From an uncultured Gemmatimonadota bacterium (GTDB taxonomy: Bacteria > Gemmatimonadota > Gemmatimonadetes > Palauibacterales > KS3-K002), in assembly GCA_964345885.1 (NCBI GenBank), contig CAYFSW010000124.1:4042-68041 (forward strand): a stretch of DNA of 64,000 nucleotides, read 5' to 3'. The stretch's first letter is position 1. Each line of letters starts with the position of its first letter. Under the pieces are notes generated by a model, which searched no databases, was not told the DNA's origin, and was given only the letters and a program-made list of their open reading frames with translations. A program made the position numbers and the translations under genes. Below, piece by piece: positions 1,069 through 33,423 of this stretch.

Positions 1069-1120
1069 GCGACCATGCTGCTGCTAAAGGTTCGCGTTGT
1101 GTGGGACCGAGTAAATATAG

Positions 1121-2366: not shown

Positions 2367-2507
2367 TGTTCGGTAGCCGGTGGCCGGTAGTCGGCAATCG
2401 GTGGTCGCTGAGCTGTGGTGGGATAGGCACCACTGATCACCGATTACTGATCACCGATCACTTTCCGCAACAGGGCACCAAAAATACAAGAAACCCCGGA
2501 TTTTGCC

Positions 2508-3038: not shown

Positions 3039-3039
3039 T

Positions 3040-3229: not shown

Positions 3230-3270
3230 GTCGAGGATGGCGCGAGGCGAAGCCGAGCGTCCGCTCTTAC

Positions 3271-3828: not shown

Positions 3829-4024
3829 GACTTCACATTGCCCTTTCAGGACGCACGAGGAGAGTGCTGATACTTGTCGGGCGGGCCACGTTTGTCAAGG
3901 ACGGGACGGCCGCCCGCCCGCCGGGGAAGTCCCTGGTATCACAGGCATTGGCCATGCCCGTCTAATGTTAGACACCAGGTGGCTGCGAATGTGCCAATTC
4001 CGGGTCGGGAACGCCGCGCGCCGG

Positions 4025-4396
4025 CTAGCGGTCGCGCATCTCGATGGGCTGGACGGGGTACTCGACGTGGAAGTAATGCCGGGAGCTTTCGTGGTGCAGA
4101 TGGATGTGGACCACGATGACACCGTCGGTCGTCTCACGGTTGAAGCGGCTCACCACGACGCTCTTGGAGAGGCTGACCGTACCCAGGTCGGCGATATCCT
4201 CCGGGTACTCCATGTGGTCGGCAAAGTAAGCCTCACACATGGTGATCAGATTGTGCAGGTCCTCTACGGCGGCGGCGTCGTATGCCCGCTCTCTAGCCCG
4301 GCTGTACTTGGGCATGGCGATAACCGCGAGCAGCCCGATGATGAGGATGACGACGAGTAGTTCGATCAGCGTGAAGCCGCGTCGGCTGGTCAGCAT
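4025..4396 (-). CDS. Prepilin-type N-terminal cleavage/methylation domain protein (type IV pilin or pseudopilin-like)
   Basis: MLTSRRGFTLIELLVVILIIGLLAVIAMP is a class III signal. ATG verified at 4394-4396. The upstream 17 aa of the ORF-track call were dropped. Confidence 0.7.
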   Translation of the reverse strand: MLTSRRGFTLIELLVVILIIGLLAVIAMPKYSRARERAYDAAAVEDLHNLITMCEAYFADHMEYPEDIADLGTVSLSKSVVVSRFNRETTDGVIVVHIHLHHESSRHYFHVEYPVQPIEMRDR

Positions 4397-4608
4397 GGTC
4401 TTGACTCCGCTACATCTACGCTCGCACGCTCGGCCGGGCCGCAGCACGGCGCAGGCCGGCGGAGCGTGGAGGGTGAAACCCCGGCACCCGGCTACTCTTA
4501 ACTATCTGTCCTGCAGATAGTTACGGAAAAACGCGGGCGGGTGGCGGCAGGATGCAGTGCCGCCGACGCGTTGCATTGGGAACACCGGCAATCTAAGTGC
4601 CTCCGCCC

Positions 4609-7083: not shown

Positions 7084-8108
7084 CGCCGAAAAACGCCCAG
7101 GCCGGGCTCAGCGCTCAGGTGCACCCGCCCCCGAGCTATACTGATCCCGGTGAAAGGATCGTTGGCCAGCAGGGCGGCGCCGTCCAGGTCGGCGAAGTCG
7201 ACCAGCGGTGCGAGCTGCGCCGCCGCGGCGATCCCCAGCGAAGTCTCGACCATACAGCCAAGCATAACGGAAAGACTATGAGAGCGCGCAGCGTGGATCA
7301 TGCGCAGCGCCTCCAAGATCCCTCCGCACTTCGCCAGCTTGATGTTGATCCCGTCCACGGCGCCGACGAGCCGCGGGATGTCCGTGGCCCGCACGCACGA
7401 CTCGTCGGCGATGATCGGAATGGGCGAGCGTTCGCGCACGAAGCGCAGCCCATCGATGTCGTGCGCCGCCACCGGCTGCTCGATGAGCTCGAGATCGAAG
7501 CTCTCCAGTGCCTCGATCCGCGACACCGCCTGCTTTGGGTCCCAGGCCGTATTCGCGTCGACGCGCAGGCGCACATCCGGCGCCTCCTCCCGAACGATCG
7601 ACAGGATCTCCTCGTCTTGGTCGGTGCCGACCTTCACCTTCAAGATCGGGAACTCGTCCACCACCGCCTCGCGCACCTTCTGGCGCACAACCTCGGGCTC
7701 GTCGATCCCTATGGTGAAGCTCGTCCATGGGGCACGACTCGCATCGAGCCCCAACAGCCGATGCACCGGTACACCGAGCCGCTTCCCCATCAGGTCATAG
7801 AGTGCCGAGACGATGGCAGCGCGGGCGGACGACGATCCACCCAGATCGTCAAGGCAGGCGGCTTCGATCTCCTGGAGGGCGAACGGATCGCGTGCCACCT
7901 CCAGCACGCGCCTGTAGCCTTCGAGAGCAGCGCAGACGGTATCCGCCGTCTCTCCGTAGTAGGGTGAGGGGTCGGCCTCACCCCAGCCGCTCGGCCCACC
8001 CTCCTCGGTCAGACGTAGCCAGACGGCGCAACGCTCGGTATGGCCGGCCCGCGCGATGGTGAAGCGATGTTTGGTGTGGAGAGGTACGACCTCGTATTCG
8101 AGCTTCAC
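7080..8108 (-). CDS. Dipeptide epimerase (L-Ala-D/L-Glu epimerase-like, enolase superfamily)
   Basis: KVKVGTDQDEEI...RVDANTAWD...ELIEQP...IIADES are the enolase-superfamily metal ligands and catalytic Lys. The start was taken as GTG at 8106-8108, just after the upstream stop. The stop overlaps the priA ATG (ATGA). Confidence 0.75.
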   Translation of the reverse strand: MKLEYEVVPLHTKHRFTIARAGHTERCAVWLRLTEEGGPSGWGEADPSPYYGETADTVCAALEGYRRVLEVARDPFALQEIEAACLDDLGGSSSARAAIVSALYDLMGKRLGVPVHRLLGLDASRAPWTSFTIGIDEPEVVRQKVREAVVDEFPILKVKVGTDQDEEILSIVREEAPDVRLRVDANTAWDPKQAVSRIEALESFDLELIEQPVAAHDIDGLRFVRERSPIPIIADESCVRATDIPRLVGAVDGINIKLAKCGGILEALRMIHAARSHSLSVMLGCMVETSLGIAAAAQLAPLVDFADLDGAALLANDPFTGISIARGRVHLSAEPGLGVFRR

Positions 8109-8109
8109 C

Positions 8110-8808
8110 CTATTCTCCGGGCTTCTCCCGGGGGAAGAAGGCGACCCTGACGAAGTCGTAGGGCGGCCAGGGGCCGGTGAGATCGAACTGGAACTCGGGA
8201 TGATCGGCATCGAGCTCGTCGGCGTACTCGACGAAGCTGACCCAATCGGCCCGGCTCACCAGGAAGGCCGCCGACAGAACGCGCCTGCCTTCGGCCGGGA
8301 GCGTGAAGGCGGCTCGCGATCGGCGGCGCAGAGCCGTATAGAAGCTTGCCGCCTGGTCCGCCAGGTCGCCTTCGCTGACGTCGGGCCGTCTTCCCGACGG
8401 CTGGATATGAAGTCGCATCTCGAACGCGCCGTCCAGAAAGGACAGCGCCTCATCGAAGGCGACGTGCTGGTCCTCGAGGAACTCGATGATGTGCTCTCTA
8501 TCCCGAAAGACGATCCCGTACGGGGCGGGAACGATCGTCGCCCGACGCATGGCGCGCTCGATAGTGGCGCTGTGCTGCTGGATGAGCTCCCTATTCCAAT
8601 CGGGGAGCCGGTAGGGGACCGTGCGGACGAGCGCCGCCATGCCGCGATGCTCGATCAGGTCGTCATCGCCCGCCGAACCGATGAGCTTGGCGAGTGCGCG
8701 CTCGTGGCCGCGGGCTCGCACGACCCCGTGGAGCAGTAGACCCTGTTGCTCGGCGGGCTGCGGCTCGTCTTGCTCGTCAGCCGTCACAGGTTGCTCGACC
8801 TCTCCCAT
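8110..8808 (-). CDS. GvpL/GvpF family protein (gas-vesicle-associated fold), orphan
   Basis: N-terminal LLLHGVVRA resembles the LYLYGIV start of GvpF/L. The C-terminus FQFDLTGPWPPYDFV matches the conserved GvpF/L end. Length 232 aa. Confidence 0.5.
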   Translation of the reverse strand: MGEVEQPVTADEQDEPQPAEQQGLLLHGVVRARGHERALAKLIGSAGDDDLIEHRGMAALVRTVPYRLPDWNRELIQQHSATIERAMRRATIVPAPYGIVFRDREHIIEFLEDQHVAFDEALSFLDGAFEMRLHIQPSGRRPDVSEGDLADQAASFYTALRRRSRAAFTLPAEGRRVLSAAFLVSRADWVSFVEYADELDADHPEFQFDLTGPWPPYDFVRVAFFPREKPGE

Positions 8809-10019
8809 CCTTCGCTCAGCAGCGGGTAAACGTCGTCTTGTGTCTTTGGCGTCGTCACCTCGGGGCCGTCGTGCCCGAGGTAGACGTTGATCTCGGAGCG
8901 GACCCCGAGGTCTTCCTCAGCCATATATACACCGGGCTCGATCGAGAAAGCTACGCCGGGGAGCAGTGTGCGTACGTCGTGGGTCTCGACGCCGTCGATG
9001 TTCGGCCCGAGGCCGTGGACCTCGTTGTCGATGGAGTGGCCGGTCCGGTGGTTGAAGCGGTCGATGAAGCCGGCTTTCTCGATGACCTCACGGCTCGCCG
9101 CGTCCACGTCGCAACCGCGTAACGGTGTCTCGGGATTGCCGAAGTGGTCCACCGCGTACTTGACCGCCGCCTCCCGGGCGCCGTGAACTGCCCGCCACAC
9201 CTCCTGCACGCGGCCAGGGATCTCGGTTCCCATGAAGCCCATCCACGTCTGGTCGGCGAACACCGAGCCGGGTTCCCGCGCCCACAGGTCGATGAGCAGG
9301 ACGCGGCCCTCGACGATTGGCGCGGCGCCCTGTGGGGTCGGTTCGTAGTGGCCGTCGGCGGCGTTGGCGCCGACGCCGACGATCGTGTCGCCTTCGACCA
9401 GCCCCGCATCGTCCATCATCTTCAAGATGGACTCCTTGAGGCCCCATTCGCTGAGGCTGACCCCGGAACGCACCGCCTCCGCCGCCTGCTTGTAGGCGCG
9501 GGCCGCAATGTTCGCTATGGCCTTCGATGTCCGCCGGTGGCTCTCCAGTTCGTCTGGCGTCCAGGTCGCCGCGAACATCGTCGCCAGGTCACCCGACTCC
9601 ACCGGGTGTACCCCCGATCGTCTGATCAGGTCGAGCACGCCGGCTGGCACGCGGTCGAGCTGCGGGACCTTGTCGTCTTCCGAGTACTCCACGGCGAGGC
9701 GTAGCCCCGGCGTCAGCAGCTCCGCCAGCGTCTTCTCCAGCTCCTGCCACTTGAAGTAGACGCGTATCGCGCCCGGCCATTCACTCCACGGTGGCACCTC
9801 CAGCGAGTGGGCGACGGCCACCGGCACCCCCTCGACCGGGATGAGCACGAAGTAGCGGCGGCTCAGCGGTTGCCCGAGTCCTAGCACTCGGCCGGCGACC
9901 GGGTTCGTCGCGTGGTAGTCGTAGAGCAGCCAGCCGTCCAACTCGCTCTCGCGTAACGCCGCCTGGATCGCCCGTAGCCGGTCCGGATCGATGTGTGCGC
10001 GTTGTGCCGTATGAGCCAT
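8784..10019 (-). CDS. M24 family metallopeptidase (Xaa-Pro aminopeptidase/prolidase-like)
   Basis: Pita-bread fold motifs: VLLIDLWA, HRTGHSIDNEVHGLGPNI, FSIEPGVY. Confidence 0.8.
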   Translation of the reverse strand: MAHTAQRAHIDPDRLRAIQAALRESELDGWLLYDYHATNPVAGRVLGLGQPLSRRYFVLIPVEGVPVAVAHSLEVPPWSEWPGAIRVYFKWQELEKTLAELLTPGLRLAVEYSEDDKVPQLDRVPAGVLDLIRRSGVHPVESGDLATMFAATWTPDELESHRRTSKAIANIAARAYKQAAEAVRSGVSLSEWGLKESILKMMDDAGLVEGDTIVGVGANAADGHYEPTPQGAAPIVEGRVLLIDLWAREPGSVFADQTWMGFMGTEIPGRVQEVWRAVHGAREAAVKYAVDHFGNPETPLRGCDVDAASREVIEKAGFIDRFNHRTGHSIDNEVHGLGPNIDGVETHDVRTLLPGVAFSIEPGVYMAEEDLGVRSEINVYLGHDGPEVTTPKTQDDVYPLLSEGWERSSNL

Positions 10020-10025
10020 TGCGAT

Positions 10026-10955
10026 TCAGTCCCCTTGGGTCCGCTCGTCGTCTTCCTCGTCGCGGGCGCCGTTCGCCTTAGTCCCGCGGATCAGCGTCAC
10101 ACCGATCGTACGCTCCTGGCCTAGCAGACTGCGTATCTCGTATTCGCGCGCCACAGCCCCCTTCAGTCCGCGCCAGCCCCATCGCCGCCAGGCGCGCCAC
10201 AGGATCGCCAGCTTGTCGGCCAGCGTGAACAGCTCGGCCAGTTTCGTGAATGTGCGGCCGCGGATCAGGAAGGGGAAGACCTGATCCGACCAGTCCTCGA
10301 CCTGCAGGTCGACCACGTCGGCGCCGCGCAGCGCCTGCTTCCATTCGACCAGCAGCAGCGGGGGGGCGCCGATATGCTGGATCAGGATGCGGCGCTGCTC
10401 CTGGTCGACATGGCCGGTCCAGACCAGGCCGATGAGCACGACTTTCCCGTCCGCCCGAGTTACGCGGCCCAACTCGGCCACCGCTTTGAGCGGGTCGGCC
10501 GAACTGGCCAGCCCCAGCTCGCCGATCGTCAGGTCGAACACGCCGTCTTGGTACGGCAGGTCGTCGACAGGCGCGTTTTGGTAGTGGACCTTCGAGTCGA
10601 CACCCTCGTCGCGGGCACGTTGCTCCGCTACCTCGATCGCCGCCGGGTCCGGGTCGACGCCGGCGACGTCCGCCGGGTAATGCTTGGCGAAGAAGTTGGC
10701 CACCGCCCCGCGTCCGCAGGGGACGTCGATCAGCGAGTTCGGCGCCTCGGTCTCGGACAGGCCAGTGAGCTTCGCGATCTGGCGGTAGAGCTTCTGGTCA
10801 CCGGAGGAGAACCCCCGGGAGCGGCTCAGACGCAGTAAATCAATCATCGAGGGCCCGCGTTCCGGGGCCGGCGGTGAGATTGGAGGTGAAGCCGCGTCTT
10901 GGTCCTCGCCTGGGAGCATGGGCGGAAGTATAGACTGGCCCCGAATAGGGGTCAA
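10026..10955 (-). CDS. Class I SAM-dependent methyltransferase
   Basis: LIDVPCGRGAVANFF is the glycine-rich SAM motif I, followed by VDPDP and VFDLTIGELGL. The start could instead be an internal M (MIDLLRL). Confidence 0.7.
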   Translation of the reverse strand: MTPIRGQSILPPMLPGEDQDAASPPISPPAPERGPSMIDLLRLSRSRGFSSGDQKLYRQIAKLTGLSETEAPNSLIDVPCGRGAVANFFAKHYPADVAGVDPDPAAIEVAEQRARDEGVDSKVHYQNAPVDDLPYQDGVFDLTIGELGLASSADPLKAVAELGRVTRADGKVVLIGLVWTGHVDQEQRRILIQHIGAPPLLLVEWKQALRGADVVDLQVEDWSDQVFPFLIRGRTFTKLAELFTLADKLAILWRAWRRWGWRGLKGAVAREYEIRSLLGQERTIGVTLIRGTKANGARDEEDDERTQGD

Positions 10956-11929
10956 CTCAGATCGAGGCCAGCCAGAGCCGTGATGTGGGCGAGCCCACAG
11001 TCGGCCAGCAGACGCAGGTCGTACCCCCCTTCCAAGACAGAGACGACCCTGCCCCCGCAGTACGAGTCGGCGACCTCGGTAACTCTCCGGGTCAGCTCGT
11101 GGTAGTCGGCCGGCTCGAGTGTGAGTCCGGCGAGTGGATCGCCGCCGGCGGCGTCGAAGCCGGCGGAGATGAAGATGATGTCAGGGCTGAGTCGGGAGGT
11201 CGCGGCCTCGATTCCATCCAGTAGCGCCTTGACGTAGCCCGCGGCAGGGAGGCCCGGTGGCACGGGGAGGTTCAGGGTCGCGCCTTCGCCGGGGCCATGA
11301 CCGCGGTGCATGCTCTGCCCCGTGCCCGGGTAGTGCGGCCACTGGTGCATCGACAGGTAGAATATGTTGGGATCCTCGTAGAAGATCGCCTCGGTCCCGT
11401 TTCCGTGGTGGACGTCCCAGTCGATGATCAGCGCACGCTCGAGACCCTTGCTCTGAGCGTAGCGGGCACCGATCGCCACGTTGTTGAACAGGCAGAAGCC
11501 CATCGCTCGGTCTTCGCTGGCGTGATGGCCCGGCGGCCTCGCGAGGCAGAAGGCGTTTGCGGCGCTGCCGTCAAGCAGCGCATCGACCGCGGTCAGCACG
11601 GTGCCGGCCGCCGCCAGCGCCGCGTTCCACGAGCCGGGCGACACAGCTGTGTCGGCGTCAAGGTGCACGATACCGCCGAGTGCGGCGGAACGGCGAACCG
11701 CCTGGCTTACTCGTTGGACGTGCGAGACAGGGTGCACCAGCGTGAGGTGCTCATCGGCGGCGTGTGCGCACTCGACGCGTTGGACGCGCGTCTCGAATCG
11801 CGTCAGCGAGTCGTCCAGCGCTGCGTGTAACGCCCGGAGTCTGTCCGCTCTCTCTGGATGTCCCGGCCCGGTGTCGTGCTGCTCGCAGTCGGGATGGTAG
11901 ACGACCAAAGTCGGTGCTCTAGGCATCAC
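10952..11929 (-). CDS. Histone deacetylase family protein (AcuC/HDAC-like amidohydrolase)
   Basis: CLARPPGHHA, IIDWDVHHGNGTEAIF and SAGFDAAGGDPL are hallmark HDAC motifs. Confidence 0.85.
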   Translation of the reverse strand: MMPRAPTLVVYHPDCEQHDTGPGHPERADRLRALHAALDDSLTRFETRVQRVECAHAADEHLTLVHPVSHVQRVSQAVRRSAALGGIVHLDADTAVSPGSWNAALAAAGTVLTAVDALLDGSAANAFCLARPPGHHASEDRAMGFCLFNNVAIGARYAQSKGLERALIIDWDVHHGNGTEAIFYEDPNIFYLSMHQWPHYPGTGQSMHRGHGPGEGATLNLPVPPGLPAAGYVKALLDGIEAATSRLSPDIIFISAGFDAAGGDPLAGLTLEPADYHELTRRVTEVADSYCGGRVVSVLEGGYDLRLLADCGLAHITALAGLDLS

Positions 11930-11934
11930 GATGA

Positions 11935-12131
11935 CTCAATATCCATTATCCGACACCCACTGACCAGATGTTCAAGGTGTTTTCAGGTGGCAAGAATCAA
12001 GTCGCAACATCCATCGAGACAAGAGTGCGGCCAGCCGGTCATCCTTGTGCCGGTGGACGTCCGATATTCATACCTGACACTCGAACAAACCTCGAGATTT
12101 GGGAAGTGGATGTTGATTACTGGATATTGAG
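11935..12131. mobile_element. MITE-like element, copy B of the TIR family
   Basis: Left end ctcaatatccattatccgacacccactgaccagatgttcaagg, right end ggatgttgattactggatattgag. The left end lies 6 bp upstream of the HDAC-family start codon. Confidence 0.6.
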
Positions 12132-12147
12132 ATAGACAGCCGCGCTC

Positions 12148-12657
12148 CTAGTCGCGCGCCAGTCGCCGGAGCAAGTCCGGATGGCGACGCCAGAAGTAGC
12201 CGATCATCGAGGCGCCGGCTAGGAAGTTGCCCACGAGCACGGCCGGCCAGTTGACCGCGCCGAGCACCGGCTCGACGAAGGCCAGGACGTACGTGTAATA
12301 GACGAACTCGAAGAAGACTACGAGGAAGAAGGTGCCCGGGATCATCAGCGGCGGCGTTCGCTCGAACAGCGCGACGGCCCACGCGACCATGAGGCCGGCA
12401 ACTATGAAGGCCAGCCCGTGAAACAGCGTGTAGCCGGCCACCAGGCCGACGATCGAGCCCGAGGCCGATGCGGGCCCGCCAAATAGGCGCGCGCCCAGCA
12501 AGGCCGGGGTGTGGAAGGGCTGGCCCGCCAGGGTGTCGGTGACGAAGAACCATAACGCCAGGGCGGCGGCGCTGAGCAGGCCGCCGACGGTACCCTCGAG
12601 AGCGAGCGCCGACATCGCCGGTTTGGCGCCGAAACGATCTGACCCCGAGATCTGCAT
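12148..12657 (-). CDS. Hypothetical integral membrane protein (about 4 TM helices)
   Basis: Hydrophobic segments throughout and no recognisable motif. The gene is flanked on both sides by same-orientation MITE copies B and C. Confidence 0.5.
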   Translation of the reverse strand: MQISGSDRFGAKPAMSALALEGTVGGLLSAAALALWFFVTDTLAGQPFHTPALLGARLFGGPASASGSIVGLVAGYTLFHGLAFIVAGLMVAWAVALFERTPPLMIPGTFFLVVFFEFVYYTYVLAFVEPVLGAVNWPAVLVGNFLAGASMIGYFWRRHPDLLRRLARD

Positions 12658-12742: not shown

Positions 12743-12940
12743 TTCAATATCCAATATCCGACATCCAGTGGCCACATGTTCAAGGTGTAAGCAGGTGGCG
12801 GTTATCAAGCCCCAATGTCAATCCCGGCAAGGATACACGGCCAACGCTTCATCCTTACCCGCTGGGCATCGGACATTAAAACCTGACACTTGAACTGTCC
12901 TTGGGATTCGATGATCGGATATTCGTTACTGGATATTGAA
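12743..12940. mobile_element. MITE-like element, copy C of the TIR family
   Basis: Left end ttcaatatccaatatccgacatccagtggccacatgttcaagg, right end gatcggatattcgttactggatattgaa. Confidence 0.6.
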
Positions 12941-21805: not shown

Positions 21806-22370
21806 TTCAATATCCAGTATCCGACAGCCAATGATCAGGCTATCAAGTGGCTTTCAAGGATCAGGTGCCAAGGCTCAATGTCAAATGAACAAGGAGATAA
21901 GGGCTTCAGGTTTGACCTGCAGGATCGCCTTATCGAATACGCTGTGCTGATCACCCGAGTCGCCGACGGACTGCCGTCGACCCGGGCAGGGAAACACACC
22001 GCGGGTCAATTAGTACGCTGCGGTACCTCTCCGGCGCCGAACTACGGCGAGGCACAGGCCGCCGAGTCACGAAAAGACTTCATTCACAAACTGAAAGTCT
22101 GCCTTAAGGAACTCAGAGAGTCGATGGTGTGGCTGGAGTATGTGCAGCGCCTAGAGTTGGGCGACCGGATGCTTGTGGCCAGAGGGATCAGGGAGACCGA
22201 CGAGCTTACTGCTATTGTATTCAGCAGCATCCAAACCGCAGAGCGAAACGATCGGACCCACTCCTGAGCCTCTGATACAATGAAGGGTTAGGAGTTGGAC
22301 CTTGGGCCTTGTTCGCTGAGTAGACCTTGAGCACATGGTCACTGGATGTCGGATAATGGATATTCAGATC
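21806..22370. mobile_element. Full-length copy D of the TIR family: a 565 bp element carrying a four-helix-bundle protein gene
   Basis: Left TIR ttcaatatccagtatccgacagccaatgatcagg; right TIR cactggatgtcggataatggatattcagatc, which is the reverse complement of the left with about 25/30 identity. There are subterminal gaccttga / tcaagg boxes. A single ORF lies between the ends. Confidence 0.65.
21878..22267 (+). CDS. Four-helix-bundle protein (23S rRNA intervening-sequence protein / DGR Avd family, PF05635-like)
   Basis: LPSTRAGKHTAGQLVRCGTSPAPNYGEAQAAESRKDFIHKLKVCLKELRESMVWL matches the QxxRxxxSIxxNIAEG...FxxFLxIAxGSxxE pattern of that family. Length 129 aa. Confidence 0.75.
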   Translation: MSNEQGDKGFRFDLQDRLIEYAVLITRVADGLPSTRAGKHTAGQLVRCGTSPAPNYGEAQAAESRKDFIHKLKVCLKELRESMVWLEYVQRLELGDRMLVARGIRETDELTAIVFSSIQTAERNDRTHS

Positions 22371-23262
22371 TCCACCACCGCATCAGCACCGGCACCACCA
22401 GCACGTTGATCCAAAGGGCGAACAGTATCCCCGCCACCGAATCGATGGCGAAGTGATTCTGCGTATAAACGGTCGATACGGCTACGCCCGCGGCGGCTAC
22501 CACCAACAGGACCGCCACCGGCCTCGAGAACCAGCGCACCCCCAGGTACGCCATGGTCGTCGACGCGGCCACATGCGAGCTGGGGAACGCGCAGCCCAAA
22601 GAGTCGCCCTGGCCCTGCAGCACCCGCTCCAGTCGATAGAACAGCCCCTGCTGGTGTGGTCCCTGGTAGTGCTCGCTCAAGAAGTGGGGGCCATCCACCG
22701 GGAACGCGATGTACACGACGTAGCAGGCGAAGTAGACCAGCACGACTCGCAGCGTCATGTCGTGCCTCATCTCCCGGCTGCCCTTGAACAGCATATAGAG
22801 AAGCGGCAGGATCACCGTCAGGTAGTAGCCGAAGTACGCCAGGTGCATGATCTCGCTGAACCATACCCAGGGCATCGCCGGCATCCAGACCTCATCCAGG
22901 TGGACCCCGAACAGCGCAGCGTCGAGGCCCCCGATCACTCTGTCGTAAGCCGCGTCGTGCAGGAGGCGGCGGATGAAGTCCAGTTCCGTCCAGAACGCCA
23001 GGATCCAAAGTAGCGGGTAGATGTCCCGCAGCAGGCGGCCGACCGGAGTAAGCCCGTCGCCGGCACGCTCGATGAGCCTCGGCAGGAGGGCGGCGGCGCC
23101 GTGCGTCAGAAACAGGGCCCAGGCGTATGGCCATTGGGGGATGAGGGTGGCCCACACGACGGCCAACAGGACGTTGTAGGCTGCCGAGATCTGGTCGACC
23201 AGCTTCAGGTGCTCCGGCTTGCTGGGGCCCGGCTTGATCGCGTCGCTATCGCCCATGCCCAT
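22339..23262 (-). CDS. PAP2 superfamily phosphatase/phosphotransferase (membrane protein)
   Basis: PAP2 motifs: AFPSSHVA (PSGH-like) and YTQNHFAIDSVAG (SRxxxxxHxxxD-like), with several TM helices. The last 10 codons (RSEYPLSDIQ-stop) are encoded by the right TIR of element D. ATG overlaps the stop of the upstream radical SAM gene (TGATG). Confidence 0.8.
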   Translation of the reverse strand: MGMGDSDAIKPGPSKPEHLKLVDQISAAYNVLLAVVWATLIPQWPYAWALFLTHGAAALLPRLIERAGDGLTPVGRLLRDIYPLLWILAFWTELDFIRRLLHDAAYDRVIGGLDAALFGVHLDEVWMPAMPWVWFSEIMHLAYFGYYLTVILPLLYMLFKGSREMRHDMTLRVVLVYFACYVVYIAFPVDGPHFLSEHYQGPHQQGLFYRLERVLQGQGDSLGCAFPSSHVAASTTMAYLGVRWFSRPVAVLLVVAAAGVAVSTVYTQNHFAIDSVAGILFALWINVLVVPVLMRWWRSEYPLSDIQ

Positions 23263-24479
23263 CAGTGGCCCTCAGGGGTAGCCTTGGGAACCGTCTGAAC
23301 GAAGCCTCCGAGATTCATCGGTTCCTCCAATCGGCACGACCATGCCAGGCGCCCGTTCCATACCGTCATGTCGGGACAGCCGTCGCACATGTTCTGGCGT
23401 CCATCGGGTAGCAGATCGATCGGCTGAATAATCATGACGGACTGGTAGTGCAGGCGGCGAAAGATGCGCAGAGGGTTGCGAAGATAGGCACGTGCCGCTC
23501 GGGCCATACCGCGGTCGAGCGGAGAAAGCGCCAGCAAGGCTCGGCCGCGGCGGTGTACCTTGGGACTGCTGTATGCCAGGTATCGCCCGTGCCGCAGGTG
23601 GTGACTGACCTGTGCCAGCTCGATGAACTTGGGACCGACGTATCCGTGGACCTTACCCCGCGTCCCTAGCCGGCCGGCGGCCAGCCACTTGAACGAGTCC
23701 GGCATCTCGGTGCCGTTGAGGTAGGCGCACGGTTGGAAATCGGGGAATCGCTTCCGGATCACCGCCAGGATATCCGTCGATTTTATGTCGGTCCGCGGCT
23801 GCTGGTCGGTGGCGTAGCGGATGTCGCTGAGGTCGATGATTCGACCGTTCACGTAGTAGTCGAAGCATCCGTCGATCAGTGCTGCACGGAAGGCGATGAA
23901 GACCAGCACGTGCACGATGTCGATGTGCTTCTCGCCCCAGTCCACGACCTCGGGCACCGACTCCAGCGTGTCCTCGTAGACCGTAGAATTGAAGGCGCAG
24001 GACAGGCCTCCCACTTCGGCGATCAGCTGCGCGAACTTGAGCCGTAGCTCGTTCAGCTCGACCTCGCTCTTGCCGCGCCAGCCTGGCCGCCTCTGCTTGC
24101 TGTCGATGTGCAGCGTCAGCCCCCAAAGCCCCGCCCGCTTCATCTCGATGAGCAACTCGCGGCTGAGGGTCAAGCCGTTCGTGTTCAGGATCGGCTTGAG
24201 TCCACGCCCGGCGATCATCGCAACGATGTCTGTGACCTCGGGGTGGCAGAGCGGGTCACCGCCCGCTACCGAAATCCCGTCCGAAGTACGTAGCTGCGTG
24301 AAAAGGTCGAGGTCGTCGGCGATCTCGTCCAGCGGCTTGTGGGATTTCGGATCGTTCGTCCGGTAGCAGCCCTCGCAGTAGAGGTTGCAGGCGGCGGTCG
24401 GCTCCAACCACGAGATCGCATTGTCTGGGAGGCTCCACGGGAGCCTGTAGAGCGATCTGTGGTCTAGCTGCTCGCTCAT
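23262..24479 (-). CDS. Radical SAM protein, HpnH-like (B12-independent) clade
   Basis: WLEPTAACNLYCEGCYRT is the CxxxCxxC motif; ISVAGGDPLCHPEV and LKPILNTNGLTL resemble adenosylhopane-synthase-like rSAMs. There is a C-terminal Cys cluster MCDGCPDMTVWNGRLAWSC. ATG verified at 24477-24479; the 55-codon upstream extension is uncertain. Confidence 0.7.
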   Translation of the reverse strand: MSEQLDHRSLYRLPWSLPDNAISWLEPTAACNLYCEGCYRTNDPKSHKPLDEIADDLDLFTQLRTSDGISVAGGDPLCHPEVTDIVAMIAGRGLKPILNTNGLTLSRELLIEMKRAGLWGLTLHIDSKQRRPGWRGKSEVELNELRLKFAQLIAEVGGLSCAFNSTVYEDTLESVPEVVDWGEKHIDIVHVLVFIAFRAALIDGCFDYYVNGRIIDLSDIRYATDQQPRTDIKSTDILAVIRKRFPDFQPCAYLNGTEMPDSFKWLAAGRLGTRGKVHGYVGPKFIELAQVSHHLRHGRYLAYSSPKVHRRGRALLALSPLDRGMARAARAYLRNPLRIFRRLHYQSVMIIQPIDLLPDGRQNMCDGCPDMTVWNGRLAWSCRLEEPMNLGGFVQTVPKATPEGH

Positions 24480-24790
24480 CAGTGCGTTCTCCTGCACCGG
24501 TGCCGGGTTGCGCGGCCGGGCATCGTCCTGGTTGGGGGTCTCGCGTCGAGCATTGGGGTTGAACGATCCTGCGAAGGTAGTGCAGCCTACCTGGGCGGGC
24601 AACAAGTGAGGGTCGCCGAGCGTCGCTCCTAGAAGTTGTCGCATCAGATTGACCTAGGCCCGCCATCTCCCTCCCGTGCCAACCTTTGGGTTGCTCGGGG
24701 CGTCTAAGGCTTGTGAGGGACAAGAGCGCTGAGCCCAGAGCGCCTGGCACAGAGACAGACGAAATCCGGGAGTAGCTAGGAATATGCACC

Positions 24791-27527: not shown

Positions 27528-27694
27528 TTCAATATCCGATAACCCATACCCACTGACCACGTAGTCAAGGACTGTTCAGCGGCCAGGGCCCGAGTTTCAA
27601 GGCCCGAGTCTCATCGGTGATTGAAACCTGACACTTGATCGCTGAAATCACTTGATACCCGCCCCCTGGATGTCGGATATTGGATATTCAGATC
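27528..27694. mobile_element. MITE-like element, copy E of the TIR family
   Basis: Left end ttcaatatccgataacccatacccactgaccacgtagtcaagg, right end ctggatgtcggatattggatattcagatc. It ends 32 bp upstream of the SDR start codon. Confidence 0.6.
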
Positions 27695-28547: not shown

Positions 28548-28925
28548 ATGACCGCGAGAGGTTCCCTGACCGTGATTGCCGCGCTGGTGCTGGCGGCTCA
28601 GCTTGGTGGGTGCGCCGGCCGCAGGGGTGCCGATGGCGAAGCCGGCCCACAATCCCAGGCCGACGTCACCATCGAGGTGGAGAACCAGAACTTCCACGAC
28701 GCCCGAATCTACCTTCTGGTCTTCGGCAGACGAACGCGATTGGGGCATATTGCCAAGCACAGCACCGAGATCTTCACGTTCGGGGCGGAGCCGGACGACA
28801 TCCGCATCGAGGTCGACTTCATTGGTGCTGGCGGCTTCGTCACGCGGCCGATGCGCGTGAGCGCCGGTGATCAGCTCAAGCTCCTGATCCAGATGCACGC
28901 CCACCGGCTGCGCGCCAAAGGGTGA
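28548..28925 (+). CDS. Small lipoprotein, paralog 1 of a 3-member family (TIEVENQNF-D-ARIY motif)
   Basis: Lipobox AAQLGGCAG. About 80 percent nt identity to 33043..33423 across the coding region and about 60 bp of flanking sequence on each side. Confidence 0.6.
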   Translation: MTARGSLTVIAALVLAAQLGGCAGRRGADGEAGPQSQADVTIEVENQNFHDARIYLLVFGRRTRLGHIAKHSTEIFTFGAEPDDIRIEVDFIGAGGFVTRPMRVSAGDQLKLLIQMHAHRLRAKG

Positions 28926-29027: not shown

Positions 29028-31634
29028 CTATCTTCGGGGCCAACCTTCACGCCATATTGGATGCAGCCAATTCTTCTCGTGGGGATCTATCTGTAGAGCC
29101 GTCCTGTATTCGGCCGTCGCCTCCTCTCGCATTCCCAGAAAGTTAAGGACGTCTCCTCTGATACTGTGCTGTGTCGCCTCAAACCGCTTCTGCACCCTGT
29201 CTGCCACCGCGGCCACTTCCTCTTCGGTCTCTCCCATGTTGACCAGGAGAGGCAATACGCTCTCTCTCAGCTCCCACGCGGTCAGCTTATTCTGCACCCG
29301 GTACGTGCCCGATACGAAGTAAGCCATCGCCGGGGTGAACTCTAGGTAAGGGTGATTGTCCGTATTCAAACTCGCCGCGGCGACATACTCCGCTAGAGCC
29401 TCTTCACCCATAACGAACCAGCCCAGTACATCGATGGGATCAGTTACGTGGAGCGGCTCGAGGTCGCGCTGGACATCTCGCATAGCGAGCTTGTCACTCA
29501 GCGACTTGAAGTCGATCTCCAGCTTCTTTTGTGTCCCGACCAAAATGAAGTATTGCCTTAGTGGTGTGAACCAGAGGGTCGTATGAGGGAACACCGTTAC
29601 AAACGTCTTCGCTATCATCCTCACTTCCTGATCCGATAGCAGGTGGAAGGGTACCCATTGAACGAGCAGCCCGTCATCGGACAGTCTCTCTTCCAGCAAT
29701 TGGTAGAACTCGAGGGCGTAGAGGCTACCGTTTCCTGCCATCTTCGGAGACGTGGCATCGATCGTAATCACGTCGTATACGTTGTCGGTCACCAGGGCGT
29801 AATTTCGCCCGTCTCCCAATATCAAATCGAAGCCGGGTTCGGTGAGCACACCGTGATTGATTTCCGGGAACCACCTCGCAGCGTCCAACACGGCCGGCAC
29901 TAGCTCGACACAATCCACTTCTTCGACGTTGTACTGCATCACCCCCCAGGATGTACCCCCCGCCCCAAAGCCGACGATGTTCACCCGTGGGGAGGACACG
30001 TTACTCAACAGCAGGGGCAGATGCGCCAGTGCTTTCTGTGCGTCCTGCGGTTCGAATCCCGTTCCCGCTACCGGGAATCCATTGATACTCAGGACCTTAT
30101 CGTCCCACTTGTCTGCGTATACTTTGACCGTGCCACCTATTCCTTCCCGATAAGAGAGAACCTCGGGACCTTCGATGCCTTCGTAGTAGGATGTTAGAGT
30201 GATCGGGCCACGTATCGCGTAGTAGGTCCCTGCAGCGACGCACAGTAGACCCAGCCCACCTGCCATCCGCATTCTGGTGGCATGTTTCATCGATGGCTCG
30301 GCTAGGATGAGTGCTCCACCAATGATCACATTGAGTCCGGCAATCACGATGATGCCGTTTTGCACACCCAGAGAAGGAATCAGCACGAAGCCGGCTGCCA
30401 CGGATCCGAAGACCCCTCCAATCGTGTTAACCGAATAAACATCACCCAACGCGCTACCAACGACGTTCACGTCTCTCGTGTATATCTTGGCGACGAGCGG
30501 GAAAGTCATTCCCATGAGGACAGTGGGCACAAGCATCACGGCGAGGCTCTTGACGAACCTGATCCCTGCCCACTTCCAGTGCAGCAGGGCGCCGAGAGAC
30601 GAGTCAGCCATGCTCTCGAACACGGGGGTCAGGTTACTCAGAATCGGAATCGCCAAGATGGCAGATAGCCCGATAAGCACCTCCATTACCCCCAACCAGG
30701 CGAACAGGCTCTTCTTGGTGTCAATGAACCTGGCTACGATGAAACTCCCCAGGGCTATACCCAAAAGGAAAGCCGTCAGAATCGTGGTGAAGGCATGGGT
30801 AGAGTTGTCCAGGAAGAAGACCAGAGCCCTTGTCCAAAACACCTCTAGAGCCAAAGCACAGAAGCCTGATACACCAACAGCCAAAAGTGCCAGCAGAGCC
30901 AACCTCGAAGGGTATGCTTCTCCTCCAGTCTCCCGTGGCTCCGTCTCGCGCTTCTCCGGGTCACCGCTGGCTGCCGGCTGAACCCCCAGACGCCAAGCCA
31001 GAGCCGACACGGTCCCCGCGATGAGAAGGTTTGCCACTCCGGCGAGGTAAGCGGCTTCTCTGACACCCAACAGCAGGATGAGAAAGAATCCTGCGGAGAG
31101 GGTACCCACGACCGCCCCGAACGTGTTCATCGAATAGAGATGCCCGACGTTCCACGCTATGCGCTCGGGTCTCCGAGCGAAGGATTTGACAATGACCGGC
31201 AGGGTTCCGCCCATTAGGGTGGCCGGAACAAGCATGACAGAGAAGGCCAGTGCGAATCTCAGCAGACTGACCTGGTAGTAGCTGATGGCGTAGCGCTGGG
31301 ATATACCGACATAGATCTCAGTTATGCCGGAGAAGAGTAGGGGCATCAGGAACGCGGATATGCCGATCCCTGCCTCTAGAAGTGCATAGACGAGGAGAGG
31401 GTCCCTTCCCTTATCGATGACTCTGCCGAAGTAGAAACTACCCAGAGCTAGTCCAGCAAAGAACGAAGCCAGAATCGTGCTTGTTGCAAAGGCAGTAGCA
31501 CCAAAGATCAGCGTGAGCATGCGCATCCAGACGACTTCGTAGACTAGCCCGCACGCTCCTGAGAGGAAGAACAACGCCAGGATGAGCAGTCGAACGCTGC
31601 CCTCTCGTGAGGGACTGGTGCTGATCTCCTTCAT
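29028..31634 (-). CDS. Fused MFS-type transporter / spermidine synthase (polyamine aminopropyltransferase) family protein
   Basis: 868 aa with about 12 TM helices at the N-terminus and a C-terminal SpeE-like domain (VNIVGFGAGGTS...ITIDATSP...). The gene sits in a region of clearly lower GC than its neighbours. Confidence 0.75.
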   Translation of the reverse strand: MKEISTSPSREGSVRLLILALFFLSGACGLVYEVVWMRMLTLIFGATAFATSTILASFFAGLALGSFYFGRVIDKGRDPLLVYALLEAGIGISAFLMPLLFSGITEIYVGISQRYAISYYQVSLLRFALAFSVMLVPATLMGGTLPVIVKSFARRPERIAWNVGHLYSMNTFGAVVGTLSAGFFLILLLGVREAAYLAGVANLLIAGTVSALAWRLGVQPAASGDPEKRETEPRETGGEAYPSRLALLALLAVGVSGFCALALEVFWTRALVFFLDNSTHAFTTILTAFLLGIALGSFIVARFIDTKKSLFAWLGVMEVLIGLSAILAIPILSNLTPVFESMADSSLGALLHWKWAGIRFVKSLAVMLVPTVLMGMTFPLVAKIYTRDVNVVGSALGDVYSVNTIGGVFGSVAAGFVLIPSLGVQNGIIVIAGLNVIIGGALILAEPSMKHATRMRMAGGLGLLCVAAGTYYAIRGPITLTSYYEGIEGPEVLSYREGIGGTVKVYADKWDDKVLSINGFPVAGTGFEPQDAQKALAHLPLLLSNVSSPRVNIVGFGAGGTSWGVMQYNVEEVDCVELVPAVLDAARWFPEINHGVLTEPGFDLILGDGRNYALVTDNVYDVITIDATSPKMAGNGSLYALEFYQLLEERLSDDGLLVQWVPFHLLSDQEVRMIAKTFVTVFPHTTLWFTPLRQYFILVGTQKKLEIDFKSLSDKLAMRDVQRDLEPLHVTDPIDVLGWFVMGEEALAEYVAAASLNTDNHPYLEFTPAMAYFVSGTYRVQNKLTAWELRESVLPLLVNMGETEEEVAAVADRVQKRFEATQHSIRGDVLNFLGMREEATAEYRTALQIDPHEKNWLHPIWREGWPRR

Positions 31635-32866: not shown

Positions 32867-33042
32867 AATGCTCCTCCCATACAGGACAACTACTTTCGCT
32901 GGGCGGTGCTGGCCAGCCGGTCAGCCGGCACGGCCACGGAATAGTGCGCCCGCGAGCCGTCACTCGCCAGCCTGGTGGTCTAAGACTCTCCGAGGCTGTA
33001 GTATGGCGATGTACGCTTACCATCCACCCGGAGGATCCAGCG

Positions 33043-33423
33043 ATGAGCGCGAGAGTTTGCCTGAAAGTGGCTGCCGCGCTGATGCTGACGGCCCAGCTAG
33101 GCGGATGTGCCGGCCGCAAGGGCACCGAAAGCGCAGCTGGGCCCCAGTCCCAGGCCGAGGTCACCATCGAGGTCGAGAATCAGAACTTCTACGATGCCAG
33201 GATTTACCTCTTGGTCTACGGCAATCGAACGCGATTGGGGCAGGTCACCGGTAACAGCACCCAAACCTTTTCGTTCGCGGTGCAGCCGGACGACATCCGA
33301 ATCGCGGTCGACTTCATTGGCGGAGCTGGTGGGTTCATCACGGAGTCCATGCCGGTGAGCGCCGGCGATCAGCTCGAGTTGCAGATCCTGCCGGACGCCC
33401 ACCGCCTGCGCTTCAAAGGGTGA
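33043..33423 (+). CDS. Small lipoprotein, paralog 2
   Basis: MSARVCLKVAAALMLTAQLGGCAG lipobox. ATG verified at 33043; the 33-codon upstream extension was rejected. Confidence 0.6.
   Translation: MSARVCLKVAAALMLTAQLGGCAGRKGTESAAGPQSQAEVTIEVENQNFYDARIYLLVYGNRTRLGQVTGNSTQTFSFAVQPDDIRIAVDFIGGAGGFITESMPVSAGDQLELQILPDAHRLRFKG

What the first reader, a model, noticed from the sequence alone, without database searches (positions are those of the whole stretch)
22339..24479. Translationally coupled radical SAM (HpnH-like) and PAP2-family membrane enzyme: a candidate lipid-modifying two-gene module
The radical SAM ORF (CNLYCEGC cluster; similar in its SAM-binding core to the B12-independent adenosylhopane-synthase HpnH clade, with an extra C-terminal Cys cluster) ends TGATG-overlapping the start of a PAP2 protein (PSGH and SRxxxxxHxxxD-type motifs, several TM helices). 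PAP2 enzymes act on lipid phosphates and include head-group transferases. Pairing one with an HpnH-like radical SAM suggests an uncharacterised membrane-lipid or polyprenoid modification pathway rather than either gene's textbook role. No other hopanoid genes are in the window.
Basis: partly seen in the sequence, partly recalled or inferred. Interest (0 to 1): 0.55.

Follow-up and report, generated by a model that had tools for sequence, protein, structure and literature searches.

The report
Tes-like radical SAM plus lipid phosphotransferase operon
Two overlapping genes in a Gemmatimonadota genome encode an uncharacterised radical SAM enzyme, closest to the archaeal tetraether-lipid synthase rather than to HpnH, and an inositol-phosphorylceramide-synthase-like membrane enzyme; the pairing is real but confined to one bacterial lineage, so a shared lipid pathway is plausible but unproven.

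Summary
On the minus strand, a 405-aa radical SAM gene (23262-24479) ends in TGATG, overlapping by one base the start of a 307-aa PAP2 gene (22339-23262).

"HpnH-like" is not supported. HpnH scores 39 bits against a cut-off of 225, no better than about 20 other families matched through the shared SAM core.

The radical SAM belongs to a large, unnamed, strongly conserved family (at least 564 species genomes, many phyla). Its closest solved relative by profile (E 1e-23) and by fold (the only full-length match, TM 0.56) is the archaeal tetraether synthase Tes/GDGT-MAS. It lacks two of Tes's four metal domains.

The PAP2 protein has a His/His/Asp triad but no phosphatase C1 or "SR" motifs. It folds like IPC synthases (TM 0.59), not like lipid phosphatases (0.38 or less).

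The pair arose once:
- All 15 members of one PAP2 clade follow the radical SAM gene.
- Most of these loci share a whole ~12-kb synteny block.
- One relative has the block without PAP2.
- Sister PAP2 clades sit in SDR operons.
- About 90% of radical SAM loci have no PAP2 nearby.

A lipid role is plausible for both genes. A shared pathway is unproven.

The parts
23262..24479 (-). Radical SAM gene, 405 aa plus stop. It belongs to an unnamed, widely distributed family whose nearest characterised relative is Tes/GDGT-MAS.
   Evidence: ORF and start; Pfam PF04055; below every NCBIfam cut-off; family size; AF2 model pLDDT 90.9; Foldseek top hits 7TOM/7TOL, TMq 0.56-0.57; family profile against PDB, 7TOL E 1.1e-23.
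24366..24389 (-). CxxxCxxC motif (C31, C35, C38) that binds the radical SAM [4Fe-4S] cluster.
   Evidence: Invariant in alignments A1 and A2.
23334..23387 (-). C-terminal M-C365-D-G-C368-P-D...C382 motif, the presumed ligands of a single auxiliary Fe-S cluster.
   Evidence: C382 is invariant and C365/C368 are at least 90% conserved down to 25% identity. There is no sequence-detectable PDB relative for this half of the protein.
22339..23262 (-). PAP2_3 family integral membrane protein, 307 aa plus stop; an IPC-synthase-like putative lipid phosphotransferase.
   Evidence: Pfam PF14378 60.9 bits; 100% identical to a protein of an NCBI Gemmatimonadetes MAG; AF2 model pLDDT 84.9, all-helical; Foldseek top hits 9VJ4 and 9IVC, TMq 0.58-0.59.
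22570..22587 (-). F-P-S-S-H-V motif (C2-like; catalytic His230).
   Evidence: P227, S228, S229, H230 and V231 are invariant in alignment A4.
22441..22467 (-). Y-T-Q-N-H-F-A-I-D motif (C3-like; His270 and Asp274, no 'SR').
   Evidence: Y266, Q268, H270 and D274 are invariant in A4.
23260..23264 (-). TGATG stop/start overlap. A GAGGG Shine-Dalgarno-like sequence lies at 23269-23273 inside the end of the radical SAM gene.
   Evidence: Read directly from the sequence. In relatives the gap is 3 to about 70 nt, always in the order radical SAM then PAP2 on the same strand.
24480..24790 (.). Divergent intergenic region between the radical SAM gene and the DUF5916 gene; presumed promoter region of the two-gene operon. 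GGAGAA lies at 24487-24492 on the minus strand.
   Evidence: No sigma-70 consensus match was found.
22339..22368 (+). One copy of a genome-specific ~30-nt repeated element. It encodes (in reverse complement) the last 9 residues and the stop of the PAP2 ORF.
   Evidence: The 30-nt pattern matches 3 sites and its 21-nt core matches 6 sites in the window, with 0 expected by chance. It is absent from all 177 related loci.

Best explanation
This is a bicistronic operon that arose once in a sub-lineage of Gemmatimonadota.

Gene 1 is a soluble radical SAM enzyme from an uncharacterised, widespread and strongly conserved family. It has the SAM-cleaving [4Fe-4S] cluster (shown: motif, fold) and, inferred, one auxiliary Fe-S cluster held by three conserved C-terminal cysteines. 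Its closest characterised relative is the archaeal tetraether synthase Tes/GDGT-MAS. Tes abstracts hydrogen from the unactivated end of a lipid tail and parks the radical on a C-terminal cluster before forming a C-C bond. I infer that the window enzyme likewise activates a C-H bond of a hydrophobic, lipid-like substrate. It does so with a reduced architecture: no N-terminal cluster and no rubredoxin domain.

Gene 2 is a polytopic PAP2_3 membrane protein with a His/His/Asp triad and an IPC-synthase-like fold. I infer that it transfers a phospho-head group from a phosphoglycerolipid donor to a lipid alcohol (ceramide-, diacylglycerol- or diol-like), rather than hydrolysing a lipid phosphate.

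The two genes are co-transcribed and probably translationally coupled (shown: overlap, order, strand). That they act in one membrane-lipid remodelling pathway is an inference, and a weak one.
For: Operon:
- One-base TGATG overlap with an internal SD-like sequence.
- Same order and strand in all 15 loci of the linked PAP2 clade, including L011/L100 where the flanks differ.

Radical SAM:
- Family profile against PDB sequences gives Tes (7TOL) E 1.1e-23, 87 bits; the next hit is PqqE at 1.2e-11, 47 bits.
- Foldseek: Tes is the only full-length match (TMq 0.56-0.57 over about 455 columns); all others match the core only (TMq 0.41 or less).
- Three C-terminal Cys are conserved down to 25% identity, analogous to the 3-Cys(+Met) C-terminal cluster of Tes that captures the substrate radical (PMC13459092).
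- In Calditrichaceae the gene sits among acyl-CoA-type genes: AMP-ligase, thiolase, enoyl-CoA hydratase, MDR reductase, 2-hydroxyacyl-CoA dehydratase.
- In a Parcubacteria MAG it abuts (stop/start overlap) a gene with weak/faint GDSL-lipase Pfam hits and lies near a 3beta-HSD/NAD_binding_4 reductase.

PAP2:
- PAP2_3 scores 60.9 bits.
- Invariant GD...FPSSHV and YTQxHxxD motifs, with no C1 and no SR.
- Foldseek top hits are the IPC synthases 9VJ4 and 9IVC, TMq 0.58-0.59, against 0.38 or less for LpxE, PgpB and SMSr.
- The best NCBIfam hit is phosphoinositol-dihydroceramide synthase, though far below its cut-off.
- Sister clades sit in operons with HpnA/SdmB/OleD-like lipid SDRs.
Against: - The radical SAM family has no conserved neighbour across about 80 genomes. 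About 90% of its loci lack PAP2 within 6 kb.
- Within the linked radical SAM subclade, L014 keeps the same synteny block without PAP2, and L016 also lacks it.
- 12 of the 13 linked relative loci with informative flanks share the whole DUF5916 / aldolase / GMC / TPP block (L098 has none). Adjacency is therefore mostly inherited, not independently re-selected.
- Sequence homology to Tes is limited to the core region (query 23-230). The C-terminal half has no detectable PDB homologue.
- The Foldseek rmsd to Tes is about 10 A.
- NCBIfam Tes scores 41.7 bits against a cut-off of 450, and other core families score similarly.
- Other recurrent neighbours (Mo-oxidoreductase-cysteine desulfurase fusion, Cys/Met PLP enzyme, FeoB) point away from lipids.
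- No cultured organism carrying the family was identified, so there are no lipid data.
Confidence: 0.42

Rival explanations
1. The genes are neighbours by descent only. They share a transcript in this lineage but work in unrelated processes. The PAP2 protein does the same lipid head-group job as its sister clades, which manage without the radical SAM. The radical SAM does the same, possibly non-lipid, job as in the hundreds of genomes that lack the PAP2 protein.
For: - Single origin of the pair on both trees.
- Whole-block synteny in nearly all linked loci.
- L014 has the block without PAP2.
- Radical SAM contexts are otherwise heterogeneous.
- Sister PAP2 clades lie in SDR-PAP2-SDR-CPBP operons with no radical SAM.
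Against: - The two genes are the only tightly coupled, co-directional pair in the block, and they overlap in the window.
- The pair survives a change of flanks in L011/L100.
- Both proteins independently resemble lipid enzymes.
Confidence: 0.38
2. The radical SAM is a maturase of a metallo-cofactor, protein or peptide (a SPASM/twitch-type enzyme with one auxiliary cluster), and its resemblance to Tes only reflects common ancestry of that subgroup.
For: - Across 20 members the best NCBIfam E-value is to the tungsten-cofactor oxidoreductase maturase TIGR04317 (3.1e-24). NirJ/Ahb, PqqE and peptide maturases also match.
- In L045, L052 and L056 the gene lies directly upstream of a molybdopterin-oxidoreductase-cysteine-desulfurase fusion, and in L037, L041 and L046 it lies within two genes of one.
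- Solved twitch/SPASM enzymes are among the structural hits.
Against: - All those matches cover only the SAM core and are far below the cut-offs.
- There is no Pfam SPASM hit.
- No precursor-peptide-like or target gene is conserved next to it.
- Tes is 12 orders of magnitude better than any maturase in the profile search, and it is the only full-length fold match.
Confidence: 0.15
3. One reading: an HpnH-type adenosyl-transferring radical SAM acting on a hopanoid or polyprenoid, with the PAP2 protein processing the product.
For: - The HpnH HMM matches the SAM core (39 bits).
- SDRs next to sister PAP2 genes score best against HpnA, though at 197 bits against a cut-off of 367.
Against: - HpnH scores 39 bits against a cut-off of 225 and ranks about 18th among families.
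- Only PF04055 and Fer4_12 are found; there is no HpnH-type C-terminal domain.
- No shc or hpn genes occur in the window.
- The family occurs in phyla and contexts without hopanoid genes.
Confidence: 0.03

Closest known systems
Tes / GDGT-MAS (archaeal tetraether lipid synthase; PDB 7TOL/7TOM; NCBIfam NF045702)
   Same: - Radical SAM core with CxxxCxxC.
- Best profile-to-sequence match in the PDB (E 1.1e-23).
- The only full-length fold match (TMq 0.56-0.57).
- A C-terminal domain carrying three conserved Cys, as in the Tes [Fe4S4]C cluster (3 Cys + Met) that traps the substrate radical. In the window protein and its close relatives a Met directly precedes the first Cys.
   Different: - About 120 residues shorter.
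- No N-terminal [Fe4S4] domain and no rubredoxin-like domain (no N-terminal Cys).
- NCBIfam Tes scores 41.7 bits against a cut-off of 450.
- No sequence-detectable homology in the C-terminal half.
- It would not pass the criterion used for 'bacterial Tes homologs' (E < 1e-50; PMC8941075).
- It has its own N-terminal Y-R-L-P-W...D-N..W-L-E motif.
HpnH (adenosyl-hopene transferase; TIGR03470)
   Same: A B12-independent radical SAM enzyme; the SAM-binding core aligns (query 24-180 to model 31-185).
   Different: - Scores 39 bits against a cut-off of 225, no better than about 20 unrelated radical SAM families.
- Different C-terminal region.
- No hopanoid genes nearby.
Mss (bacterial membrane-spanning lipid synthase of Thermotoga/Thermoanaerobacter; PMC13159169)
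   Same: A bacterial radical SAM enzyme described as remotely related to Tes. It is reported in Calditrichaeota, the FCB group and Actinobacteria, phyla that also carry the present family.
   Different: - Identity with Mss could not be tested because no Mss sequence was available.
- Mss has been found only in anaerobes, whereas, from general knowledge, cultured Gemmatimonadota are mostly aerobes.
Inositol phosphorylceramide synthases (Aur1, PDB 9IVC; 9VJ4) and the sphingomyelin-synthase / PAP2_3 phosphotransferase branch
   Same: - Pfam PAP2_3.
- Only full-length fold matches (TMq 0.58-0.59).
- His/His/Asp catalytic triad in C2/C3-like motifs, with no phosphatase C1 motif.
   Different: - About 14% sequence identity; the Foldseek E-value is only 1e-3.
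- Bacterial, with no Kei1-like partner.
- The NCBIfam bacterial PI-dihydroceramide synthase model scores 22.9 bits against a cut-off of 480.
- Donor and acceptor are unknown.
- No ceramide-synthesis genes in the window.
PAP2 lipid phosphate phosphatases (PgpB, LpxE, the UppP-type PAP2 enzymes BcrC/SepP)
   Same: PAP2 superfamily (PF01569, 30.8 bits). The C-terminal ~70 residues match the PgpB, undecaprenyl-diphosphatase and SepP models weakly.
   Different: - No C1 KxxxxxxRP motif, and no Ser-Arg in C3.
- Fold matches are partial (TMq 0.38 or less).
- All models score far below their cut-offs.

Membership tests
Radical SAM superfamily (PF04055) | CxxxCxxC cluster motif and partial TIM-barrel core; Pfam score above 29.5 bits. 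| tested here: met
   51.5 bits. C31, C35 and C38 are invariant. Core fold matches many radical SAM structures.
HpnH (TIGR03470) | Whole-protein score of at least 225.05 bits on the equivalog model. | tested here: not met
   39 bits, core only. Best family-wide E-value 9.8e-13, ranking about 18th.
HpnH (TIGR03470) | Genomic association with hopanoid genes (shc, hpnG and others). | tested here: not met
   None among the 29 main ORFs of the 64-kb window. The rest of the genome was not seen.
Tes / GDGT-MAS (NF045702) | Whole-protein score of at least 450 bits; or, in the literature, E < 1e-50 against MA_1486. | tested here: not met
   41.7 bits, model positions 91-265 of 486 only. Best among 20 members is 8e-20.
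Tes / GDGT-MAS (NF045702) | Four metallo-domains: rubredoxin-like Fe, N-terminal [Fe4S4], radical SAM [Fe4S4], C-terminal [Fe4S4] (PMC13459092). | tested here: not met
   The protein is 405 aa against 526 aa for Tes. There are no Cys before C31. Only the radical SAM motif and one C-terminal 3-Cys group are conserved.
Tes / GDGT-MAS (NF045702) | C-terminal auxiliary cluster (3 Cys + Met) adjacent to the SAM site. | tested here: inconclusive
   Three conserved Cys are present, preceded by Met in close relatives. There is no sequence homology of this half to Tes. Model coordinates could not be inspected.
Tes / GDGT-MAS (NF045702) | Overall fold similarity beyond the radical SAM core. | tested here: met
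   TMq 0.56-0.57 over 451-457 columns, against 0.41 or less for all other radical SAM structures; rmsd about 10 A.
Mss (bacterial MSL synthase) | Homology (E <= 1e-50) to WP_129545148.1 / Tmari_0825. | not testable with these tools
   No Mss sequence could be obtained; the paper's supplements are not held.
SPASM/twitch radical SAM enzymes | Pfam SPASM (PF13186) or the 7-Cys CX9-15GX4C...CX2CX5CX3C...C motif. | tested here: not met
   There is no SPASM hit. Only CX2CX13C is conserved. A twitch-like half-domain cannot be excluded.
PAP2_3 (PF14378) / PAP2 superfamily | Pfam gathering scores of 27 and 27.2 bits. | tested here: met
   60.9 and 30.8 bits.
IPC-synthase / SMS-type lipid phosphotransferases | Catalytic His (C2), and His and Asp (C3), in a polytopic helical fold, without the phosphatase C1 motif. 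| tested here: met
   H230, H270 and D274 are invariant, and no KxxxxxxRP is present. The fold matches 9VJ4 and 9IVC with TMq 0.58-0.59.
IPC-synthase / SMS-type lipid phosphotransferases | Transfer of a phospho-head group to ceramide (activity). | not testable with these tools
   This needs biochemistry. The NCBIfam PI-DHC synthase model scores only 22.9 bits against a cut-off of 480.
PAP2 lipid phosphate phosphatases (PgpB/LpxE type) | C1 KxxxxxxRP, C2 PSGH, C3 SRxxxxxHxxxD. | tested here: not met
   C1 is absent, C2 is PSSH, and C3 lacks SR. All models score below their cut-offs. Fold matches are partial only.
Conserved functional gene pair (radical SAM + PAP2) | Adjacency retained across lineages and across different flanking contexts. 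| tested here: inconclusive
   15 of 15 within one PAP2 clade, but a single origin. Only two flank contexts are seen. One loss occurs within the same synteny block, in L014. The pair is absent from 74 of the 80 species-genome radical SAM loci.

The most novel reading that the evidence does not exclude
The radical SAM family is a previously unrecognised, minimal (two-cluster) bacterial relative of Tes that couples or otherwise functionalises unactivated fatty-acyl or alkyl tails in largely uncultured soil and sediment bacteria (Gemmatimonadota, Bryobacterales, Ignavibacteriota, Calditrichota, Solirubrobacterales). That would make it a third route, besides Tes homologues and Mss, to bacterial membrane-spanning or otherwise cross-linked lipids. 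In this Gemmatimonadota clade it would be wired to an IPC-synthase-like transferase that installs the polar head on the product.
Probability: 0.1. Interest if true: 0.85.

Novelty: new variant of a known kind. Interest (0 to 1): 0.45.

Why it matters
The enzymes that make bacterial membrane-spanning lipids (iso-diabolic acid, brGDGTs) are still unknown for many producers. Mss is absent from Acidobacteria, and Tes homologues are present in only some of them (PMC13159169). A widespread, strongly conserved radical SAM family whose nearest relative is Tes is therefore a reasonable candidate to test.

The PAP2 protein adds a bacterial, IPC-synthase-like phosphotransferase family in Gemmatimonadota, whose membrane lipids are little studied.

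If the two genes turn out to be unrelated in function, the finding is an ordinary lineage-specific operon.

Tried and rejected
- **Model coordinates.** They are not exposed to the scripting tool, so cluster geometry and the active-site pocket could not be checked.
- **C-terminal profile.** A profile of the C-terminal half alone found no PDB relative.
- **Mss.** The paper's supplements are not held, and its text gives no motif usable for a test.
- **Organism names.** Look-ups of distant members returned only MAGs. A third homology search seeded with the Bryobacterales member also returned only metagenomic or MAG proteins, with no Solibacter or Bryobacter isolate.
- **Literature.** Searches for radical SAM + PAP2 clusters, and for Gemmatimonadota + membrane-spanning lipids, found nothing relevant.
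- **Promoter/terminator scan.** It found nothing above chance.
- **Neighbour clustering.** No family-wide partner was found. Recurrent minority neighbours give no single theme: Zn-ADH/MDR, Mo-oxidoreductase-NifS fusion, Cys/Met PLP enzyme, FeoB, CorA, M20 peptidase.
- **Alternative start.** The longer 460-aa start at 24644 was considered and rejected because homologues start at the 24479 equivalent.


Full report
**1. Observation**

Both genes lie on the minus strand.

- The radical SAM ORF runs from ATG 24479 to TGA 23264-23262 (405 aa). GGAGAA lies seven nt upstream of its start.
- A longer 460-aa reading from 24644 exists, but every homologue begins at the equivalent of 24479 (M..LDHR.LYRLPW).
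- The PAP2 ORF runs from ATG 23262-23260 to the stop at 22341-22339 (307 aa).
- The stop and start share one base (TGATG), and GAGGG lies six nt upstream of the PAP2 ATG, inside the radical SAM gene.
- Pfam gives Radical_SAM plus Fer4_12 for the first gene, and PAP2_3 (60.9 bits) plus PAP2 (30.8 bits) for the second.

The PAP2 motifs were read slightly wrong. C2 is PSSH. The C3-like motif is YTQNHFAID, without Ser-Arg. No C1 motif exists.

**2. The radical SAM is not specifically HpnH-like**

Against NCBIfam, HpnH scores 39 bits (cut-off 225) over the SAM core only. NirJ2 (53.9), TrsS (41.7), Tes (41.7) and viperin (38.1) score similarly, as do about 20 further families. Scanning 20 family members spanning 25-57% identity gave the same picture, with HpnH about 18th by best E-value. 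Pfam sees no domain beyond the core. None of the window's 29 main ORFs is a hopanoid gene.

**3. What family it belongs to**

The protein belongs to a large unnamed family.

- 3952 proteins at E <= 1e-5 in the word-indexed search, with the best 120 all at least 63% identical.
- 161 representatives of 50%-identity clusters at E <= 1e-30.
- At least 564 species genomes. The best 80 loci include Gemmatimonadota, Calditrichaceae, Ignavibacteriota, Bacteroidota/Chitinophagales, Bryobacterales, other Acidobacteriota, Solirubrobacterales and KSB1, all at 58% identity or more.
- More distant full-length members occur in Deltaproteobacteria and Parcubacteria MAGs.

Down to 25% identity the family keeps three features:

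- the CxxxCxxC motif;
- an N-terminal Y-R-L-P-W...D-N..W-L-E motif;
- a C-terminal C-D-G-C-P-D-x13-C motif (C365, C368, C382).

No listed member carries the name of a cultured organism.

**4. Closest characterised relative**

An AlphaFold2 model built from the diverse alignment is confident (pLDDT 90.9, pTM 0.92).

- Foldseek against the PDB puts GDGT-MAS/Tes (7TOM, 7TOL) first: E 1.7e-11, TMq 0.56-0.57 over about 455 columns. Every other radical SAM structure aligns only the core (about 190-280 columns, TMq 0.41 or less).
- Independently, an HMM of the family against PDB sequences gives 7TOL E 1.1e-23 (87 bits). The next hit is PqqE at 1.2e-11 (47 bits).

Tes has four metallo-domains. Its C-terminal [Fe4S4], held by 3 Cys + Met, is proposed to capture the first lipid radical (PMC13459092). 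The window protein has no N-terminal cluster and no rubredoxin domain. It keeps three C-terminal Cys, preceded by Met in the close relatives.

The limits of this resemblance:

- Sequence homology stops at about residue 230.
- A profile of the C-terminal half finds nothing in the PDB.
- The rmsd to Tes is about 10 A.
- The protein fails the Tes family cut-off (41.7 against 450 bits) and the literature criterion for 'bacterial Tes homologs' (PMC8941075).

It works most like Tes, but it is not a Tes.

Whether it equals Mss, the bacterial membrane-spanning lipid synthase described as 'remotely related' to Tes (PMC13159169), could not be tested because no Mss sequence was available.

**5. The PAP2 protein**

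Homologues carrying an organism name are all from Gemmatimonadota, and one NCBI MAG protein is 100% identical.

- Invariant residues are G219-D220, F-P-S-S-H230-V, and Y-T-Q-x-H270-x-x-x-D274.
- This is the His/His/Asp triad without the phosphate-clamping Lys/Arg of C1 and the Arg of C3.
- From general knowledge, this pattern is typical of the sphingomyelin/IPC-synthase transferase branch.
- The AF2 model (pLDDT 84.9) matches full-length only the IPC synthases 9VJ4 and Aur1 9IVC (TMq 0.58-0.59). LpxE, B. subtilis PgpB and SMSr reach 0.36-0.38.
- The best NCBIfam hit is phosphoinositol-dihydroceramide synthase, though far below its cut-off.

I therefore read it as a lipid phospho-head-group transferase. 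Donor and acceptor are unknown.

**6. Is the pair conserved?**

*From the radical SAM side.* Among 87 loci (80 species genomes plus 7 others), a PAP2 homologue lies within the flank in only 7. All 7 are Gemmatimonadota with a radical SAM at least 74% identical to the window's (L007-L009, L011-L013, L015). Clustering all flanking ORFs found no neighbour present in more than about 10% of loci. The minority neighbours are heterogeneous.

*From the PAP2 side.* Among 80 metagenomic PAP2 loci:

- Eight PAP2 loci at 54% identity or more (L094-L100, L102) all have the radical SAM immediately upstream. The one exception at that identity, L144 (58% over a partial match), has an SDR gene upstream instead.
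- No PAP2 at 36-52% identity has the radical SAM nearby.
- About 30 of the 80 loci sit instead in a recurrent SDR-PAP2-SDR-CPBP operon. Its SDRs score best against HpnA, SdmB and OleD, below their cut-offs.

*Trees.* Neighbour-joining trees show the linked PAP2s as one clade (15 of 15). The linked radical SAMs fall in one subclade that also contains L014, L016 and L010, which lack PAP2.

*Flanks.* 12 of the 13 linked relative loci with informative flanks share the whole block: DUF5916 | radical SAM-PAP2 | aldolase | GMC-small-GMC-TPP | TonB receptor. L098 has no flanks. Only L011 and L100 carry the pair in other surroundings. L014 has the block minus PAP2.

*Conclusion.* The pairing has one evolutionary origin and has been stably inherited, with at least one loss. 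That is consistent with a functional link but does not demonstrate one.

**7. Mechanism**

*Shown:*
- two co-directional, overlapping genes;
- a radical SAM core;
- three conserved C-terminal Cys;
- a PAP2 His/His/Asp triad;
- fold resemblances to Tes and to IPC synthase.

*Inferred:*
- The radical SAM reductively cleaves SAM, abstracts H from an unactivated carbon of a hydrophobic substrate, and uses a single auxiliary cluster for radical capture or electron transfer.
- The PAP2 protein forms a phospho-histidine-type intermediate and passes a phospho-head group to a lipid alcohol.

*Speculative:* the two act on the same lipid.

Weak support for a hydrophobic substrate comes from two contexts. 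In Calditrichaceae the gene lies among acyl-CoA-type genes. In a Parcubacteria MAG it lies next to a gene with weak GDSL-lipase hits and near a reductase.

Counter-indications are the Mo-oxidoreductase-cysteine-desulfurase, Cys/Met PLP and FeoB neighbours elsewhere, and the solitary context in a Deltaproteobacteria MAG.

**8. Verdict**

The feature is a lineage-specific operon joining a reduced Tes-like radical SAM of an uncharacterised family to an IPC-synthase-like PAP2 protein. Interest is moderate, because the radical SAM family itself, more than the pair, is a testable candidate for unexplained bacterial lipid chemistry.

Noticed in passing
window 3043-3063(-), 11938-11958(-), 12746-12766(-), 21809-21829(-), 22344-22364(+), 27668-27688(+): A ~21-30-nt element, GGATGTCGGATA(A/T)TGGATATT, occurs six times in the window (0 expected by chance). 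At least three copies lie about 10-60 nt upstream of start codons on the same strand: the deacetylase-like gene at 11929, the small GMC-associated ORF at 21764, and the SDR at 27726. This suggests a promoter or operator motif. One copy overlaps the 3' end of the PAP2 gene in antisense and encodes its last 9 residues. The element is absent from all 177 related loci.
   Followed up: partly
L088-L092 and about 30 of L094-L173 (e.g. L092:5030-8611): Sister clades of the PAP2 protein (36-52% identity) sit in a recurrent overlapping operon: HpnA/OleD-like SDR, PAP2_3, HpnA/SdmB-like SDR (NAD_binding_4), CPBP/Rce1-like protease. L092 also has a fatty-acid-desaturase-like gene and a second PAP2_3 + SDR + unknown + class I/II aminotransferase set. 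This may be an undescribed lipid pathway in Gemmatimonadota.
   Followed up: partly
L045, L052, L056 (directly downstream of the radical SAM); also L037, L041, L046, L083: In several genomes the radical SAM family gene neighbours a large fusion protein of about 780-1160 aa combining a molybdopterin oxidoreductase with a class-V aminotransferase (cysteine-desulfurase-like) domain.
   Followed up: partly
L001/L025 (Calditrichaceae) 477-12373: Here the radical SAM family gene is embedded in an acyl-CoA-type cluster: AMP-ligase, 2-hydroxyacyl-CoA dehydratase plus activator, thiolase, MDR-type reductase, a second 320-aa radical SAM, and enoyl-CoA hydratase.
   Followed up: partly
window 1266-2366 (-): A second, unrelated radical SAM gene with a SPASM domain (366 aa).
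   Followed up: no
window 28548-28925 (+) and 32944-33423 (+): Two paralogous small putative lipoproteins (LGGCAG lipobox-like; shared ...EVTIEVENQNF.DARIYLLV... core) lie about 4.4 kb apart. The out-of-frame ORFs upstream of them are also similar, which suggests a duplicated segment.
   Followed up: no
window 29028-31634 (-): An 868-aa fusion of an MFS-like polytopic domain, a spermidine/spermine-synthase-like domain and a TPR-like C-terminus.
   Followed up: no
window 21878-22267 (+): A four-helix-bundle '23S rRNA intervening-sequence protein' gene lies downstream of PAP2 in the window and in L008. Most relatives carry a class II aldolase gene at that position (L007, L009, L012, L013 and others).
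   Followed up: partly
(e.g. L042 Bryobacterales against P0078 from a hot-spring metagenome): Radical SAM family members from different phyla are 58-81% identical. That is unusually high and suggests strong constraint, horizontal transfer or MAG mis-binning.
   Followed up: no
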